Shown here: positions 2,924 through 63,702 of the stretch, in pieces | How positions within the stretch are numbered: the stretch's first letter is position 1 | Layout of the letters: every line of letters begins with the position of its first letter | Sequence record: NC_054913.1 | DNA from: Escherichia phage F2 | DNA length: 64,000 bases | Reading direction: 5' to 3' (one strand) | The notes under the pieces: model-generated | Told to the model about the DNA's origin: nothing | The model's input: only the letters and a program-made list of their open reading frames with translations | Databases searched by the model: none | Made by a program: the position numbers and the translations under genes

Positions 2924-2952
2924 GTTTACTTCTCCTCAGGTTGTGTTATAGT
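2924..2952 (+). promoter_or_regulatory. T4-type early promoter (GTTTAC-N17-TATAGT)
   Basis: -35 gtttac 2924-2929, -10 tatagt 2947-2952. Confidence 0.55.
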
Positions 2953-2979
2953 AGTCCTTACTTACTAGAGGAGAACGTT

Positions 2980-3159
2980 ATGTCACGTAAAGAAAAAATT
3001 TCTAAGTTAATGTTTTTGATTGAAGAGTACGCTAATGCGGTATCTGATTGGGAAAATGCTCATGGTTGCGAAGATGGAGACATCGACATTAACAGAGCTA
3101 TGAAAAAGATGGCTGATACGCACACCGAATTGCAAATGTACGTTAACGAGATTATGTGA
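2980..3159 (+). CDS. hypothetical protein
   Basis: ATG preceded by GAGGAG RBS; ORF track 2911..3159. Confidence 0.5.
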   Translation: MSRKEKISKLMFLIEEYANAVSDWENAHGCEDGDIDINRAMKKMADTHTELQMYVNEIM

Positions 3160-3166
3160 GGACATT

Positions 3167-3373
3167 ATGCTTTACGATTATACTGGAAAATCTGAAGACG
3201 GTGTACTTGAACTTTTACCTGAAAGCGCTGAAGATGATGATATGGTGATGATGTTTTGTAAAAATGGTCCTGGGGATAAGGGATGGATTTATCTTCGCCA
3301 AGAAAATGACTTAATTGTTTTAGACCCTAAACAAGTTGAAGAACTTTATCAACATTTAAAACACAATCGGTAG
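3167..3373 (+). CDS. hypothetical protein
   Basis: ORF, RBS GAGGA upstream. Confidence 0.5.
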   Translation: MLYDYTGKSEDGVLELLPESAEDDDMVMMFCKNGPGDKGWIYLRQENDLIVLDPKQVEELYQHLKHNR

Positions 3374-3402
3374 TTTACGTCTTGGTAGGACTATGTTATA
3401 GT
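3373..3402 (+). promoter_or_regulatory. T4-type early promoter
   Basis: gtttac 3373-3378, tatagt 3397-3402; embedded in perfect 12-bp inverted repeat 3382-3413. Confidence 0.55.
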
Positions 3403-3430
3403 AGTCCTACCAAAACAAATGGAGAACAAA

Positions 3431-3541
3431 ATGAAACTTTTGCTTATCGCTTATGTTGTAGTACAATACAATTATCCGATGTTTACTTATAACATGGTAA
3501 ACGGCATAGTGAATCTTATTGAAACGAGTATGGTAAAATGA
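3431..3541 (+). CDS. small hypothetical protein (36 aa)
   Basis: ATG with GGAGAA RBS; below ORF-track size cutoff. Confidence 0.3.
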   Translation: MKLLLIAYVVVQYNYPMFTYNMVNGIVNLIETSMVK

Positions 3542-3718: not shown

Positions 3719-4249
3719 ATGAAAACTGTAATTGAAACAACCGAGTTGTTTGGTGATTTATGTATCGAAAAACGTGGTTATGTGTATGTTCTGACACAAG
3801 AAGATGATGCTGCTACTATTCTTCCTATGGAACTAGACAAGATTTTGAAACTCAATCCACCAGGTCATGCATCTGTAATTAACATTAACGAAGACCTTCA
3901 AGTTCGTTTTTATCATGGACTTTATAGTGGGGTTAATATCGAAACCGAAGACGAATGTTTTTCTATTAATAATTGGAAAACATTCGTCACTAAGGTGAAA
4001 GAATTAATGGAATCTGAAACAGCCAAAAAGGCCAAACTTCAATGGGCTAAATGCCGTAATGCTTTTATTACAAATCAGGACCGCCCTGACTATACAACAG
4101 TCCTAGGCGTTAATCCTTCTTATGAAGATGGTGATGTCGTAGTTATTCGTCAAATTGATGACCTTCGTCAACATATCATTACATTGGACAAAGATGAAGC
4201 AGTTGCTCTTAAAGCTTATCTTGATTCTATTATCCCGACTTTGAAATAA
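3719..4249 (+). CDS. hypothetical protein
   Basis: ORF track 3707..4249; ATG at 3719. Confidence 0.55.
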   Translation: MKTVIETTELFGDLCIEKRGYVYVLTQEDDAATILPMELDKILKLNPPGHASVININEDLQVRFYHGLYSGVNIETEDECFSINNWKTFVTKVKELMESETAKKAKLQWAKCRNAFITNQDRPDYTTVLGVNPSYEDGDVVVIRQIDDLRQHIITLDKDEAVALKAYLDSIIPTLK

Positions 4250-7583: not shown

Positions 7584-7612
7584 GTTTACAAGGTCTATGG
7601 TTATGTTATTAT
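7584..7612 (+). promoter_or_regulatory. T4-type early promoter
   Basis: gtttac 7584-7589, tattat 7607-7612. Confidence 0.6.
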
Positions 7613-7639
7613 AGACCTATCAACTACTGGAGGTAAAAC

Positions 7640-8188
7640 ATGAACGCTAAAGATATTTTCAACCTGGTAAATTATAACGACGGTAAATTTAAATCTGAAG
7701 CACAAAGCAAGTTCTTTAATGACATTGCTTATGGTAACGAGATTACCGTGGACGGAGGTCAGATTTTCAAATCTCGCTGGAATTGGATTGCTATCATCGA
7801 TTCAGTTGGAATTGTGGAAGTCTACAAAAACACTAACAAAAAACGTACATTATTCTGGTCTCGTGAAACTAACGAGCAGTACAAAAAGGATAAAGCATCT
7901 CGTTTATCCAAAGTAACCCAGGAAGATATCGAGTTTATCAAGAAAGATATCGAGTTTATCAAGAAAGATATCGAGATGTACGAAAATTTAATCGCTGAAG
8001 ACCAGGCAGTACTCGATAAGTTTGATGAAATTAAAGCTTCTCGTGAAATCCCTGACTTCATGAAAGAAACAGTAAACGAACGATACGCTCTCACTTCAGA
8101 ACGTATTGCAAACTATACAAAACAGAAAGCAGAACGTATTAGTACTCTTCGGAAATTTGAAGAACGTTTAAAGACGGTTCACGCATAA
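7640..8188 (+). CDS. hypothetical protein with internal tandem repeat
   Basis: ORF with GGAGG RBS; contains in-frame 21-bp tandem repeat. Confidence 0.55.
   Translation: MNAKDIFNLVNYNDGKFKSEAQSKFFNDIAYGNEITVDGGQIFKSRWNWIAIIDSVGIVEVYKNTNKKRTLFWSRETNEQYKKDKASRLSKVTQEDIEFIKKDIEFIKKDIEMYENLIAEDQAVLDKFDEIKASREIPDFMKETVNERYALTSERIANYTKQKAERISTLRKFEERLKTVHA
7925..7975 (+). repeat. 21-bp direct tandem repeat (about 2.4 copies) inside CDS
   Basis: gatatcgagtttatcaagaaa repeated, encoding DIEFIKK. Confidence 0.9.
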
Positions 8189-15675: not shown

Positions 15676-16498
15676 GTATTATATAATTTATAAAATAACA
15701 AATATAATTAATTCAAAGGAATATATCGGTGCGCATAGCACCGATAACATAAATGACGGTTATATGGGGTCAGGAACATTGATTCGTGCCGCTTTATTAA
15801 AATATGGTAGAAAAAATTTTAATAAAGAAATTTTACATGTTTTTGATAATGAAAAACAAATGTATGATAAAGAAGCTGAACTTGTAACCGAAGAGTATTG
15901 TCTAAAAGAAAATACATATAATATTAAACCTGGTGGAAAAGGTGGAACTGCCTATGAACAGACACTTGAACATCGCCGCAAAAATAGTTTAGCAAATAAA
16001 GGTAAAAAGAGAACAGAAGAAACTAAAATAGCTATTTCACGTGCTTTAAAGAAATATAAACGTACGCCAGAGCATCAAGCAAATTTAAATAAAGCCGTAA
16101 GCATAGCTATGAAGCGAAAAGATGTTAGAAGTAAATTAGCTGGAGAGCGGTCTGAGAAAGATAAATTATCTATATCAAACGGTGTTAAAAAATATTACAA
16201 TTCTTTGAGTGAAGAAGAACGCGAACTTCATCGCAAGCGAATTATTGAAGGTAAAAAGAATTCTCCCATGTCATTGGAATCTAGACAAAAGCTTTCAAAA
16301 GCTTTAAAAGGACTTCAAGTTGGTTCAAAAAATCCAATGTATGGAAAAATTTCTCCAACTAGCAAAACCGTTTCAGTTGACGGTATTAAATATGATTCAA
16401 TTAAAAAGTGCTCAAATGCCATAAAAGTTTCTAGACATCTTATACTAAAACGCTGTAATTCTACTGATGAAGCTTGGAAAAATTGGATATTATTATGA
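15668..16498 (+). CDS. free-standing GIY-YIG homing endonuclease (Seg-like)
   Basis: N-terminal GIY-YIG motif (YYIIYKITN...EYIGAH); basic C-terminal repeats; inserted between nrdD and nrdG. Confidence 0.75.
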   Translation: MHRYYIIYKITNIINSKEYIGAHSTDNINDGYMGSGTLIRAALLKYGRKNFNKEILHVFDNEKQMYDKEAELVTEEYCLKENTYNIKPGGKGGTAYEQTLEHRRKNSLANKGKKRTEETKIAISRALKKYKRTPEHQANLNKAVSIAMKRKDVRSKLAGERSEKDKLSISNGVKKYYNSLSEEERELHRKRIIEGKKNSPMSLESRQKLSKALKGLQVGSKNPMYGKISPTSKTVSVDGIKYDSIKKCSNAIKVSRHLILKRCNSTDEAWKNWILL

Positions 16499-19138: not shown

Positions 19139-19150
19139 TAATATACAACG

Positions 19151-19182
19151 ATAGGAAGATAATAACATTCGTCTTCCTATCG
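19151..19182 (+). terminator. terminator-like hairpin
   Basis: gataggaagat...tcttcctatc inverted repeat. Confidence 0.4.
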
Positions 19183-19203
19183 TCTTAAAATGAGGAAAAT
19201 ATC

Positions 19204-19443
19204 ATGGCCCAAGAATTAGATTTTATCAAATTCAAAAAACACCTCGACGTTAAAATTTGGGATTCAATTGTTAGGATTGAGTATGACATTTTAACAGATG
19301 CTATTACTGTTAGTTGTGATGGAAATAGTTTCAGCTTCGATACAACCGAAAACAAATACCCAATCTATAAAGGCATCTTTGATATGGGTGTTGATATTAC
19401 TCCACGTGATACAAATTACTTACTTTTCATGCTTAAAAAATAG
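19204..19443 (+). CDS. hypothetical protein
   Basis: ORF with GAGGAAAA RBS. Confidence 0.5.
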   Translation: MAQELDFIKFKKHLDVKIWDSIVRIEYDILTDAITVSCDGNSFSFDTTENKYPIYKGIFDMGVDITPRDTNYLLFMLKK

Positions 19444-19509
19444 TATACAAACTCTTGAGAGCAGAGTATAATGCTCTCGTTGGATAATAAAATAACCGAG
19501 GAAAATAAT

Positions 19510-42580: not shown

Positions 42581-42609
42581 GTTTACTTCTCCAGCAGTTG
42601 TGTTATTAT
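42581..42609 (+). promoter_or_regulatory. T4-type early promoter
   Basis: gtttac 42581-42586, tattat 42604-42609. Confidence 0.6.
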
Positions 42610-42635
42610 AGACCTATCAACTACTGGAGAACAAA

Positions 42636-42953
42636 ATGAAAACCATTGATTGTAAAGCAGAATTTAAGATTTTTTATCACGGTTCAAGCAGTTCAGCTAA
42701 CATTGAAAACATGCTTTGTCCTCCTGAGGAAACAGGAGTTCTGTCTGAAACTGGACGTAAGAAAAACTTGGACCGTGTATTCTTTACCGAAGATATCGGT
42801 TTAGCAAAGATTTATGCAGGACGAGCAGCACGCTCTTATGGAGGTGAACCACGTCTCTATCGAGTAATTTCTCCGGTAGACGTAGTTCAAATGAATAATA
42901 CTAAAGGTGCTACAGTTTATCACGCTGAATGGGCATTTTGCGAGGAAATATGA
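42636..42953 (+). CDS. hypothetical protein
   Basis: ORF with GGAGAA RBS. Confidence 0.5.
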   Translation: MKTIDCKAEFKIFYHGSSSSANIENMLCPPEETGVLSETGRKKNLDRVFFTEDIGLAKIYAGRAARSYGGEPRLYRVISPVDVVQMNNTKGATVYHAEWAFCEEI

Positions 42954-44097: not shown

Positions 44098-44127
44098 GTT
44101 TACATTATAGATGGACTATGGTATAGT
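44098..44127 (+). promoter_or_regulatory. T4-type early promoter
   Basis: gtttac 44098-44103, tatagt 44122-44127. Confidence 0.55.
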
Positions 44128-44156
44128 AGTCCTATCAAATCAACTAAGGAGTTAAA

Positions 44157-55019: not shown

Positions 55020-55048
55020 GTTTACTTCTCCTCTAGATGTGTTACTAT
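55020..55048 (+). promoter_or_regulatory. T4-type early promoter
   Basis: gtttac 55020-55025, tactat 55043-55048. Confidence 0.55.
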
Positions 55049-55076
55049 AGACCTATCAAAACAAGAGGAGAATATT

Positions 55077-55304
55077 ATGAAACGTCAAATCATTAAAAAC
55101 GTAACTACTGATTCAAACATCGATGAGTTTGAAGATGTTCTGTTTAATCCTGATTTAGTTGTTGTACAGAAAAACTGGACCGAATTTTTATGCTACACCG
55201 AAGTGGTTTACGTTTACGAAAAACTCGGTGATGAAATGCCTATCTATGGCATCTTCCGTGAAATCACTGAAAACGGTACAACTTATTGGAAGGAAACTTA
55301 CTAA
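55077..55304 (+). CDS. hypothetical protein
   Basis: ATG 55077 with AGAGGAGAA RBS. Confidence 0.5.
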
Positions 55305-63646: not shown

Positions 63647-63676
63647 GTTTACAACTAAGTAGGACTATGATATAGT
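63647..63676 (+). promoter_or_regulatory. T4-type early promoter
   Basis: gtttac 63647-63652, tatagt 63671-63676. Confidence 0.55.
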
Positions 63677-63702
63677 AGTCTTATCTAAAAGAGGATAACA
63701 TC

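What the first reader, a model, noticed from the sequence alone, without database searches (positions are those of the whole stretch)
3382..3413. Perfect 12-bp palindrome centred on the -10 of an early promoter
ttggtaggacta - tgttatag - tagtcctaccaa has perfect 12-bp arms around the -10 region. Weaker versions (ggacta...tagtcc, aggtctat...atagacct) recur at the promoters near 44111, 63661 and 7590. This could be an operator for a dimeric regulator or a cruciform-prone site.
Basis: seen in the sequence. Interest (0 to 1): 0.4.

Follow-up and report, generated by a model that had tools for sequence, protein, structure and literature searches.

The report
Promoter-embedded RNA stem-loop (PeSL cassette)
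The perfect 12-bp palindrome around the -10 box is real, but it is best read as an RNA hairpin that forms in transcripts reading through from upstream, a member of the published "promoter-early stem-loop" cassettes of T4-like phages, and not as a binding site for a regulator.

Summary
TTGGTAGGACTA (3382-3393), tgttatag, TAGTCCTACCAA (3402-3413) is a perfect 12-bp dyad. Its loop holds the TGn and most of the -10 of a T4-type early promoter (-35 TTTACG at 3374-3379, -10 TATAGT at 3397-3402). This promoter lies upstream of the mobD.2 homolog of an RB69-like (Mosigvirus) phage. Chance expects 0.135 such repeats in 64 kb.

The orthologous T4 promoter has a perfect 13-bp dyad at the same place, with four base pairs replaced by compensatory double changes. 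Among about 38 orthologs (22 distinct sequences), one-sided changes are almost all G·U on the sense strand, roughly 7 events against 1 A·C. In the common RB27 allele the sense RNA folds at -21.6 kcal/mol and the antisense RNA at -5.3. As DNA the two strands fold at only -3.8 and -1.2 kcal/mol. Other promoters in the same genomes carry dyads with unrelated arm sequences.

So base pairing in sense RNA is conserved, not a DNA half-site. The promoter's own transcript is predicted to start inside the right arm, so only read-through RNA can form the hairpin. This matches the published PeSL cassettes (Arbiol 2010; Comeau 2014). What the hairpin does is still inferred: there is no U-tract after the stem, and the ribosome-binding site is not occluded. 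This is a new member of a known kind, of modest interest.

The parts
3167..3373 (+). Upstream 68-aa ORF. Its stop codon TAG (3371-3373) directly abuts the -35 hexamer, so the promoter fills the whole intergenic space.
3351..3368 (+). A-rich stretch upstream of the -35 (ATTTAAAACACAA), in the UP-element-like position. Inferred, not tested.
   Evidence: [quoted passage not shown]
3374..3379 (+). -35 hexamer TTTACG. With the preceding G it gives GTTTAC, the T4 early-promoter signature.
3382..3393 (+). Left arm TTGGTAGGACTA, lying in the promoter spacer (about -27 to -16). Extends to 3379 with one mismatch.
3394..3402 (+). TGt + TATAGT, the extended -10. Bases 3394-3401 form the 8-nt loop.
3402..3413 (+). 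Right arm TAGTCCTACCAA (about -7 to +5). Extends to 3416 with one mismatch. It overlaps a downstream motif shared by many early promoters (TAgNCCTATCAA).
3409..3409 (+). Predicted transcription start: an A, 7 nt after the -10. It lies inside the right arm, so the promoter's own RNA lacks the left arm. Inferred.
   Evidence: inference from -10 spacing
3421..3431 (+). Shine-Dalgarno GGAG within GGAGAACAAAA. This is a perfect match to the strong RegB/S1 cleavage consensus GGAGRAYARAA and begins 8 nt after the stem.
   Evidence: consensus from PMC3014915
3431..3541 (+). mobD.2 homolog, 36 aa (MKLLLIAYVVVQYNYPMFTYN...). This is the gene served by the promoter.
44099..44136 (+). Paralogous promoter with dyad (GAT)GGACTA tggtatag TAGTCC(t)ATC, upstream of the sp (spackle) homolog.
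63648..63687 (+). Paralogous promoter with dyad AAGTAGGACTA tgatatag TAGTCTTATCT. It has two G·U pairs on the sense strand.
7585..7618 (+). Promoter of the nrdC.8 homolog with dyad AGGTCTAT (7591-7598) / ATAGACCT (7611-7618) around the -10.
19444..19478 (+). Promoter (TATACA-N17-TATAAT) with dyad GAGAGCA / TGCTCTC around the -10. It resembles the T4 motB promoter (GGGACCA / TGGTCCC) with two compensatory changes.
19148..19183 (+). Perfect 12-bp palindrome ACGATAGGAAGA / TCTTCCTATCGT with a PeSL-like right arm but no properly spaced -35/-10. The hairpin is retained without a promoter.

Best explanation
The palindrome is the stem-loop part of a 'promoter-early stem-loop' (PeSL) cassette, a compact intergenic unit of T4-like phages. 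The unit runs: stop codon, A-rich stretch, strong sigma-70 early promoter, ribosome-binding site, start codon. The only sequence-free parts of the promoter are the -35/-10 spacer and the first transcribed bases, and these have evolved to be complementary.

The structure that is conserved is an RNA hairpin on the sense strand. It has 12 bp and an 8-nt loop that contains the -10, with a minimum free energy for the surrounding 81-nt region of about -21 to -23 kcal/mol. It can form only in transcripts that start upstream, for example at the promoter at 2925, and read through. RNA started at this promoter is predicted to begin at about 3409, inside the right arm, and so lacks the left arm.

Shown: the dyad, the promoter geometry, conservation of pairing through compensatory changes, the sense-strand G·U tolerance, and its recurrence with different arms at other early promoters.

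Inferred: the hairpin acts on read-through RNA as an intercistronic insulator. It may attenuate or pause read-through polymerase, as claimed for PeSLs. It may also leave a 3'-terminal hairpin that protects the upstream message once the RNA is cut at the perfect RegB site 8 nt downstream. It does not work by hiding the ribosome-binding site. As a by-product, the repeated cassettes and their palindromes are substrates for recombination and inversion.
For: Geometry:
- The dyad and promoter positions are as described.

Orthologs:
- The T4 ortholog is GTTGACAAGATTA-tggtatag-TAATCTTGTCAAC.
- In 18 distinct orthologous sequences, 95.3% of cells are paired and 4 pairs show double changes. No shuffle of 500 reached this, and slid controls gave 26-57%.
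- One-sided variants are G·U or U·G at 5 positions, about 7 independent events. Only one C·A (HX01) and one U·U occur within the 12-bp stem.
- In Tequatrovirus, left-arm positions 5 and 10 toggle between A and G in all four combinations while the right arm stays constant.
- The RB27 allele folds at -21.6 kcal/mol as sense RNA (z -5.2) and -5.3 as antisense RNA (z -0.2). As DNA it folds at -3.8 / -1.2 kcal/mol.

Paralogs:
- In the paralog alignment, 11 of 13 pairs show double changes, and no shuffle of 500 reached this.
- Each promoter's spacer pairs better with its own downstream sequence than with those of other promoters: 0 of 5000 permutations in both the window and T4.
- Arm sequences differ among T4 ipI, ipII, ipIII, motB, dmd and mobD.2.

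Context:
- No terminator-like site lies on the + strand between the promoter at 2925 and 3374, so read-through is expected.
- A hairpin is retained at 19148 without a usable promoter.

Literature:
- PeSL stem-loops 'overlapping the -10 box', drawn with G-T pairs, are proposed as attenuators. One RB49 stem-loop lowered lacZ expression as strongly as rrnB T1 (PMC2839356).
- PeSLs were reported for the T4/PST pair with the promoter consensus TTTACW-N17-TAYWAT (PMC4122927).
Against: - No U-tract follows the stem in any ortholog (AACAAAUGG; T4 CUGCCAAGG). The terminator scan does not flag the site. Canonical intrinsic termination is therefore unlikely, and the attenuator role rests on one RB49 stem-loop of different composition.
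- No transcript 5'/3' end data for this locus were found.
- The sense-over-antisense folding bias across all promoters is significant in T4 (-3.07 against a background of -1.10, p = 0.012) but not in the window (-0.35 against -0.80).
- G·T tolerance on the top strand is also compatible with a hairpin in the non-template DNA strand.
- Compensatory changes in a palindrome can arise by templated (quasi-palindrome) mutation without selection.
- The legend to Fig. 3 of Comeau 2014 places the PST stem-loops 'just upstream of' the promoter. This does not literally describe the present geometry.
Confidence: 0.6

Rival explanations
1. The dyad is a DNA operator. A dimeric phage or host protein would bind the two half-sites across the -10 and switch the early promoter off. 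The factor that shuts off T4 early promoters is unknown, so such a protein could exist.
For: - The dyad is perfect and covers the -10.
- Three promoters in the window share the core GGACTA-N8-TAGTCC.
- In T4, the mobD.2 and dmd promoters share GACAAGAYTA.
- The mechanism of early-promoter shut-off is unknown (PMC2988021 and PMC3014915).
- Coordinated change of both half-sites between genera could in principle reflect co-evolution with a protein.
Against: - Arms differ completely among promoters of one genome: T4 ipI TGATGAGGTAGT, ipII TCCTAGAATTGTGA, motB GGGACCA, mobD.2 GTTGACAAGATTA.
- The dyad axis shifts by 2-3 bp in ipII and ipIII.
- Asymmetric variants are tolerated only when they give G·U on the sense strand.
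- The most common Tequatrovirus allele has 2-3 of 13 positions asymmetric.
- The shared right arm is explained by a downstream promoter motif that is also present in promoters with no dyad.
- A hairpin persists at 19148 without a promoter.
Confidence: 0.06
2. The structure matters at the DNA level. One possibility is cruciform extrusion. Another is a hairpin in the non-template strand that presents the -10 as a single-stranded loop and so modulates promoter opening. A third is that the palindrome serves mainly as a recombination or inversion site for cassette shuffling.
For: - Window top- and bottom-strand DNA hairpins fold at -10.6 and -11.8 kcal/mol.
- Phage F25 carries an exact inversion of the hairpin top.
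- PeSLs are reported to recombine and to form mini-circles, with one crossover mapped inside the loop (PMC2839356).
- Near-identical cassettes sit in front of unrelated genes, for example Dhakavirus L015 and the extra ORF at 19204 flanked by such elements.
- G·T is the least destabilising DNA mismatch, so a top-strand hairpin is not excluded.
Against: - A cruciform needs both strands. The RB27-type allele gives only -3.8 (top) and -1.2 (bottom) kcal/mol as DNA, yet is the commonest allele.
- An 8-nt loop disfavours extrusion.
- Recombination between cassettes needs homology, not intrastrand pairing, and would not select for compensatory changes.
Confidence: 0.12
3. The hairpin lowers translation of mobD.2 from read-through mRNA by blocking the ribosome standby region. 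The gene would then be made mainly from its own promoter's transcript. This would be a weak version of the RBS-sequestering hairpins of T4.
For: - The geometry matches the known T4 principle: a promoter sits inside the hairpin, so its own transcript lacks the 5' arm (PMC2988022).
- Sister promoters at 2925, 42582 and 55021 do pair their spacers with the SD. Their P(unpaired) falls from 0.38-0.72 in the own transcript to 0.11-0.13 in read-through RNA.
- The stem ends only 8 nt before the GGAG.
Against: - Predicted SD accessibility at 3374 is the same in the own and read-through RNA (0.56 against 0.52). The same holds for 44099, 63648 and 7585.
- The distance from stem to SD among paralogs ranges from 1 nt (T4 motB) to more than 30 nt (ipII, ipIII).
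Confidence: 0.12
4. The palindrome has no function of its own. It would be maintained by templated quasi-palindrome mutation and by gene conversion among repeated promoter cassettes.
For: - Palindromes can self-correct by intrastrand template switching. This is established knowledge from T4 rII studies, recalled and not tested here.
- The F25 inversion shows that such strand switching occurs at this site.
- The cassettes are repeated and similar to one another.
Against: - It does not explain why dyads with unrelated arms arise around the -10 of many promoters in two genera.
- It does not explain the excess of G·U over A·C intermediates.
- It does not explain why the pairing has been kept since Mosigvirus and Tequatrovirus diverged.
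Confidence: 0.08

Closest known systems
PeSL (promoter-early stem-loop) cassettes of T4-like phages (Arbiol et al. 2010, PMC2839356; Comeau et al. 2014, PMC4122927)
   Same: Both have the order: upstream stop codon, A/T-rich stretch, strong sigma-70-type early promoter, stem-loop, SD and ATG. 'Overlapping the -10 box' is a named PeSL subclass, and G-T pairs are drawn in the published stems. The T4/PST consensus TTTACW-N17-TAYWAT fits this site. Both are repeated in hyperplastic regions of small ORFs, and both are associated with gene insertion and replacement.
   Different: The published functional test used one G/C-rich RB49 stem-loop. The stem here is mixed-sequence with no U-tract. RB69-like phages were not analysed in those papers. 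The covariation, the sense-strand G·U asymmetry, and the split into -10-only and SD-reaching hairpins come from this analysis and are not taken from those papers.
T4 RBS-sequestering hairpins with an internal promoter (e, soc, 49, I-TevI, segB, mobE; reviewed in PMC2988022)
   Same: A promoter lies inside the hairpin, so only longer upstream transcripts can fold it.
   Different: Those cases involve late or middle promoters, and the stem contains the SD. Here the promoter is early and the SD (3421-3424) lies outside the stem and stays accessible. The closest analogue in that review is the phage 25 seg43(25) hairpin, which lies just upstream of a free RBS and whose function is also undetermined.
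Rho-independent (intrinsic) terminators
   Same: A stable hairpin in nascent RNA, in an intergenic position.
   Different: There is no U-tract after the stem in any ortholog, the loop is 8 nt, and only 5 of the 12 pairs are G-C.
Palindromic repressor operators overlapping the -10 (for example LexA or lambda-type operators)
   Same: Dyad symmetry across the -10.
   Different: The arm sequence is not conserved between orthologs or among sites. The tolerated asymmetry is strand-specific (G·U).

Membership tests
PeSL cassette | Sigma-70-like early promoter with -35 and -10 about 17 bp apart (T4/PST type TTTACW-N17-TAYWAT) | tested here: met
   TTTACG-N17-TATAGT with TG extended -10. The consensus is from PMC4122927.
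PeSL cassette | Sequence able to form a stable stem-loop within or overlapping the promoter | tested here: met
   12-bp perfect stem. The MFE of the 81-nt region 3360-3440 is -22.8 kcal/mol, z -4.05. It belongs to the 'overlapping the -10 box' subclass (PMC2839356).
PeSL cassette | Bounded by the upstream gene's stop codon and an AT-rich stretch at the 5' end, and by SD + ATG at the 3' end | tested here: met
   TAG at 3371-3373, A-rich stretch at 3351-3368, GGAG at 3421-3424, ATG at 3431.
PeSL cassette | Repeated in the genome, in regions of small variable ORFs, and associated with gene gain, loss or replacement | tested here: met
   There are about 10-14 such promoters in the window. A near-identical cassette lies before an unrelated gene in a Dhakavirus. 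An extra ORF at 19204 is flanked by such elements between the orthologs of T4 55.3 and 55.2. The same gene (nrdC.8) carries different cassette types in T4 and the window.
PeSL cassette | The stem-loop attenuates or terminates transcription coming from upstream | not testable with these tools
   The only test reported is a lacZ assay for one RB49 stem-loop. Here no U-tract follows the stem.
Intrinsic terminator | G+C-rich hairpin followed directly by a U-rich tract | tested here: not met
   The stem is followed by AACAAAUGG (T4: CUGCCAAGG). The site is not listed by the terminator scan.
Dimeric-protein operator | Half-site sequence conserved in orthologous promoters and shared by all regulated sites | tested here: not met
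   4 of 12 pairs are replaced between the window and T4. Other promoters of the same genomes have unrelated arms.
Dimeric-protein operator | No strand preference in the tolerated half-site changes | tested here: not met
   About 7 G·U events against 1 A·C. The RB27 allele folds only as the sense strand.
T4-type RBS-sequestering hairpin | The promoter lies inside the hairpin, so its own transcript lacks the 5' arm | tested here: met
   The predicted start at about 3409 is inside the right arm. The start site is an inference.
T4-type RBS-sequestering hairpin | SD and/or start codon base-paired in the long transcript | tested here: not met
   P(unpaired) of the SD window is 0.56 in the own transcript and 0.52 in read-through RNA at 3374. 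In contrast it falls to 0.11-0.13 at 2925, 42582 and 55021.

The most novel reading that the evidence does not exclude
The -10-type hairpins and the RegB sites just downstream of them (a perfect GGAGRAYARAA at 3421-3431) could together form a punctuation system. RegB would cut read-through polycistronic early RNA in the SD. The hairpin 8 nt upstream of the cut would then become a 3' cap that stabilises the upstream cistron, while the downstream cistron is inactivated. Each small early gene would then be expressed essentially only from its own promoter, with its message lifetime set separately. A more radical reading is also not strictly excluded: the sense-strand hairpin forms in the non-template DNA strand and presents the -10 as a loop to sigma-70.
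Probability: 0.15. Interest if true: 0.5.

Novelty: new member of a known kind. Interest (0 to 1): 0.27.

Why it matters
The finding places a conspicuous perfect palindrome in an already described class, the PeSL cassettes, so it should not be pursued as a new operator.

The comparative data add one point to that class. What is conserved is pairing in the sense-strand RNA, not a DNA site. The hairpins fall into two types. In one type the SD is left free, as here. In the other the promoter spacer pairs with the SD and should silence the gene on read-through transcripts. If confirmed experimentally, this would show how T4-like phages insulate dozens of tightly packed early genes from one another, using only the sequence-free parts of their promoters.

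For annotation and phage engineering, there is a practical consequence. Changing a promoter spacer in these phages may also change the RNA structure of the upstream message.

Tried and rejected
- Relatives via the neighbouring MobD.1 protein in IMG/VR gave only one locus. I switched to a degenerate DNA pattern on the mobD.2 coding sequence and to GenBank phage records.
- Rfam found no family anywhere in the window.
- Literature searches for T4 transcript-end maps (Term-seq, dRNA-seq) found nothing usable for this locus. The T4 genome review (PMC150520) is not held.
- Intrinsic terminator: rejected because there is no U-tract.
- SD occlusion: rejected for this site by pairing probabilities.
- Operator: disfavoured by arm diversity and strand asymmetry.
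- A specific link between -10-type hairpins and RegB consensus sites was checked by eye on the promoter lists. RegB-like SDs occur with all promoter types, so no specific association can be claimed.
- The genome-wide sense/antisense folding bias was significant in T4 but not in the window. It is reported as mixed evidence.
- The Jiaodavirus loci L013 and L014 have no mobD.2 homolog and gave no early-type promoter with my pattern.

Full report
**What is there**

The window is a T4-like phage read opposite to the conventional T4 map. Its closest GenBank records are Mosigvirus (RB69-like) phages at 95-99% identity. Thymidine kinase lies at 1742-2323 and rI at 2576-2878.

The finding lies in the 57-nt gap between a 68-aa ORF (stop TAG at 3371-3373) and the homolog of T4 mobD.2 (ATG at 3431, 36 aa). 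The gap reads:

G-TTTACG-tc-TTGGTAGGACTA-tgt-TATAGT-AGTCCTACCAA-aacaaat-GGAG-aacaaa-ATG

- The promoter scan gives a -35 at 3374-3379, a 17-nt spacer, a -10 at 3397-3402 and a TG extended -10.
- The arms are 3382-3393 and 3402-3413. They are perfect over 12 bp, and 15 nt at 93% if extended.
- The loop therefore contains TGn and five bases of the -10. The left arm is the promoter spacer. The right arm runs from the last base of the -10 to about +5.

**Is it more than chance?**

- The window contains three perfect inverted repeats with arms of at least 12 nt and loops of 3-12 nt. The expectation from 200 Markov-1 randomisations is 0.135.
- GGACTA-N8-TAGTCC with at most one mismatch occurs exactly three times (3388, 44113, 63662), against 0.03 expected.
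- All three copies sit in GTTTAC-N17-TATAGT promoters followed by an SD and an ATG.
- The fourth site (7585) has AGGTCTAT / ATAGACCT around its -10.

The observation and the claim of recurrence are both confirmed.

**Orthologs**

The T4 promoter of mobD.2 reads TTTACA-a-GTTGACAAGATTA-tggtatag-TAATCTTGTCAAC. This is a perfect 13-bp dyad in the same register, but four pairs are replaced by compensatory double changes.

I collected the orthologous region from 31 loci: GenBank phages, IMG/VR and metagenomes. Seven more were added later.

- On 18 distinct sequences the 13-pair helix is 95.3% paired and has 4 pairs with changes on both sides. No shuffle of 500 reached the observed pairing or covariation. 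Slid controls gave 26-57% paired.
- One-sided changes are nearly all G·U or U·G on the + strand. They occur at five positions, in about seven independent events. One is the classic G-C, G·U, A-U series at one pair.
- Within the 12-bp stem there is only one C·A (phage HX01) and one U·U.
- In Tequatrovirus, two left-arm positions toggle between A and G in all four combinations, while the right arm never changes.
- The commonest allele (RB27 type) folds at -21.6 kcal/mol as sense RNA (z -5.2) and -5.3 as antisense RNA (z -0.2). As DNA it gives -3.8 and -1.2 kcal/mol.

This pattern is expected for a hairpin in sense-strand RNA. It is not expected for a symmetric protein site or for a two-strand cruciform.

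**Paralogs and generality**

A covariance model built from the orthologs finds the same promoter-plus-hairpin unit at other early promoters.

- In the window: 63625, 44076, 19421, 7562 and others.
- In T4: dmd, ipI, motB, trna.4 and dexA.
- In a Dhakavirus: upstream of an unrelated gene.

Nine promoters share the same register. In their alignment 85.5% of cells are paired and 11 of 13 pairs have double changes, which no shuffle of 500 reached.

T4 ipII has a perfect 14-bp dyad (TCCTAGAATTGTGA / TCACAATTCTAGGA), and ipIII has a related 8-bp one. Their axes are shifted by 2-3 bp.

In both genomes each promoter's spacer pairs better with its own downstream sequence than with those of other promoters (0 of 5000 permutations). 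The promoter regions also fold better than random segments (p about 0.001).

Arms are thus diverse within a genome. The partial similarity of the right arms (TAGTCCTAYC) reflects a downstream motif, TA-g/c-N-CC-TATCAA(CTAC). This motif is also present in promoters without a -10 dyad.

**Two hairpin types**

In a second set of promoters the spacer is complementary to the Shine-Dalgarno region, and the two covary: TCTCCTC / GAGGAGA, TCTCCAG / CTGGAGA, TCTCCTCT / AGAGGAGA. This set includes window 2925, 42582 and 55021, and T4 regB, denV, nrdC.8 and dexA.

Pairing probabilities separate the two types.

| Type | Sites | P(unpaired) of SD, own transcript | P(unpaired) of SD, read-through RNA |
|---|---|---|---|
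| SD-type | 2925, 42582, 55021 | 0.38-0.72 | 0.11-0.13 |
| -10-type, this site | 3374 | 0.56 | 0.52 |

At the other -10-type sites (44099, 63648, 7585) read-through folding likewise does not lower SD accessibility.

The hairpin under study therefore does not act by hiding the ribosome-binding site.

**Mechanism**

Shown: the structure, its position, its conservation by covariation and its sense-strand character.

Inferred from geometry:
- The promoter's own RNA starts at about 3409 and cannot form the hairpin.
- RNA from the promoter at 2925 can form it. No terminator-like site lies on the + strand between the two.

Inferred from literature: Arbiol et al. described exactly this kind of unit as a PeSL. 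Stem-loops 'overlapping the -10 box' are one of their five subclasses, and G-T pairs are drawn in their stems. They proposed that the stem-loop attenuates transcription from upstream, and one RB49 stem-loop reduced lacZ expression as much as rrnB T1 (PMC2839356). Comeau et al. extended PeSLs to T4/PST with the promoter consensus TTTACW-N17-TAYWAT (PMC4122927).

Against canonical termination, no ortholog has a U-tract after the stem.

An alternative or additional role is suggested by the sequence itself. The SD 8 nt after the stem is a perfect match to the strong RegB/S1 consensus GGAGRAYARAA (PMC3014915). Cleavage there would leave the hairpin near the 3' end of the upstream message, where it could block 3' exonucleases. 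This is speculation. RegB-like SDs occur with all promoter types in the lists.

The retention of a perfect 12-bp hairpin at 19148-19183 without a properly spaced promoter fits a role for the hairpin that is independent of promoter activity.

**Rivals**

- *Operator.* This idea is attractive because the mechanism of T4 early-promoter shut-off is unknown (PMC2988021). It is disfavoured by the diversity of arms, the shifting axis and the strand asymmetry.
- *DNA-level roles.* These are not excluded as side effects. In phage F25 the top of the hairpin (GGTTA-tggtatag-TAATC) is exactly inverted, which moves the -10 to the other strand. PeSLs are also reported to recombine.
- *Templated palindrome correction.* This could produce compensatory changes without selection. 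It does not explain the G·U bias or the independent origin of many unrelated dyads.

**Comparison and novelty**

The site meets every sequence-level feature that defines a PeSL. The one functional feature, attenuation, cannot be tested here. It fails the defining features of an intrinsic terminator (no U-tract), of an operator (no conserved half-site) and of the T4 RBS-sequestering hairpins (the SD is not in the stem).

It is therefore a new member of a known kind, in an RB69-like phage. The comparative evidence for an RNA-level structure and the split into two hairpin types are modest additions.

**Verdict**

The operator and cruciform interpretations are largely not supported. Interest is about 0.27.

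Noticed in passing
window 2925-2982, 42582-42638, 55021-55079 (also 18015 and 42148; T4 regB, denV, nrdC.8, dexA promoters): In a second class of early promoters the -35/-10 spacer is complementary to the downstream Shine-Dalgarno region, and the two covary: TCTCCTC 2931-2937 / GAGGAGA 2968-2974; TCTCCAG 42588-42594 / CTGGAGA 42624-42630; TCTCCTCT 55027-55034 / AGAGGAGA 55064-55071. The predicted P(unpaired) of the SD falls from 0.38-0.72 in the promoter's own transcript to 0.11-0.13 in read-through RNA. This is the RBS-sequestering principle known for T4 late genes, applied here to early promoters.
   Followed up: partly
L012 (Escherichia phage vB_Eco_F25, OP870144) about 1455-1485: The top of the orthologous hairpin is exactly inverted relative to RB27-type phages (GGTTAtggtatagTAATC becomes GATTActataccaTAACC). 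This puts TATAGT on the other strand. mobD.2 is not annotated there. It is either a palindrome-mediated inversion or an assembly artefact.
   Followed up: partly
window 19148-19183 and 19204-19443: A perfect 12-bp palindrome ACGATAGGAAGA / TCTTCCTATCGT (loop 12) lies in an intergenic gap with no properly spaced -35/-10. It precedes a 79-aa ORF that is absent from T4. That ORF is inserted between the orthologs of T4 55.3 and 55.2 and is followed by another promoter-hairpin unit at 19444-19478. The arrangement looks like a cassette insertion.
   Followed up: partly
window 3421-3431 and 42626-42636: GGAGAACAAAA matches perfectly the consensus for strong RegB/S1 endoribonuclease sites, GGAGRAYARAA (PMC3014915). 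In T4 the promoters at 73571, 70695 and 55383 carry GGAGAATAAAA.
   Followed up: partly
L015 (Dhakavirus CLBP2, OZ035781) 1502-1560: A nearly identical promoter-hairpin cassette (CGGTAGGACT g tggtatag t AGTCCTACCG) lies upstream of an unrelated 184-aa gene. The outer pair has changed from T-A to C-G. This is consistent with cassette mobility between genera.
   Followed up: partly
window 7585-7642 compared with T4 53942-53885 (nrdC.8): The same gene carries different hairpin types in the two phages. The window has a -10-centred dyad. In T4 the spacer GTTCCTCTGT pairs with the SD region ACGGAGGAAC. The sp (spackle) promoter has a dyad in the window (44099) but none in T4 (20108).
   Followed up: partly
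window promoters at 7585, 42582, 55021, 44099, 3374; T4 promoters at 73571, 70695, 65412, 55383, 53942, 27079: A conserved motif lies directly after the -10, approximately TA-N-N-CC/AC-TATCAACTAC. It is shared by many early promoters of both genera regardless of hairpin type, and its function is unknown.
   Followed up: no
window 15792-15827: A perfect 12-bp AT-rich palindrome CTTTATTAAAAT / ATTTTAATAAAG (loop 12). It appears to lie inside a coding region.
   Followed up: no
window 3950-3988: A 19-nt inverted repeat, 89% complementary, with a 1-nt gap (GACGAATGTTTTTCTATTA / TAATTGGAAAACATTCGTC). It lies inside the MobD.1 homolog coding sequence.
   Followed up: no
L001 1440-1494 (T4) and L007 5018-5072 (RB27): In Tequatrovirus the predicted fold adds an outer 4-bp helix. 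UGGU, just upstream of the -35, pairs with GCCA, immediately before the AGGAG of the SD. The structure therefore ends flush with the ribosome-binding site.
   Followed up: no
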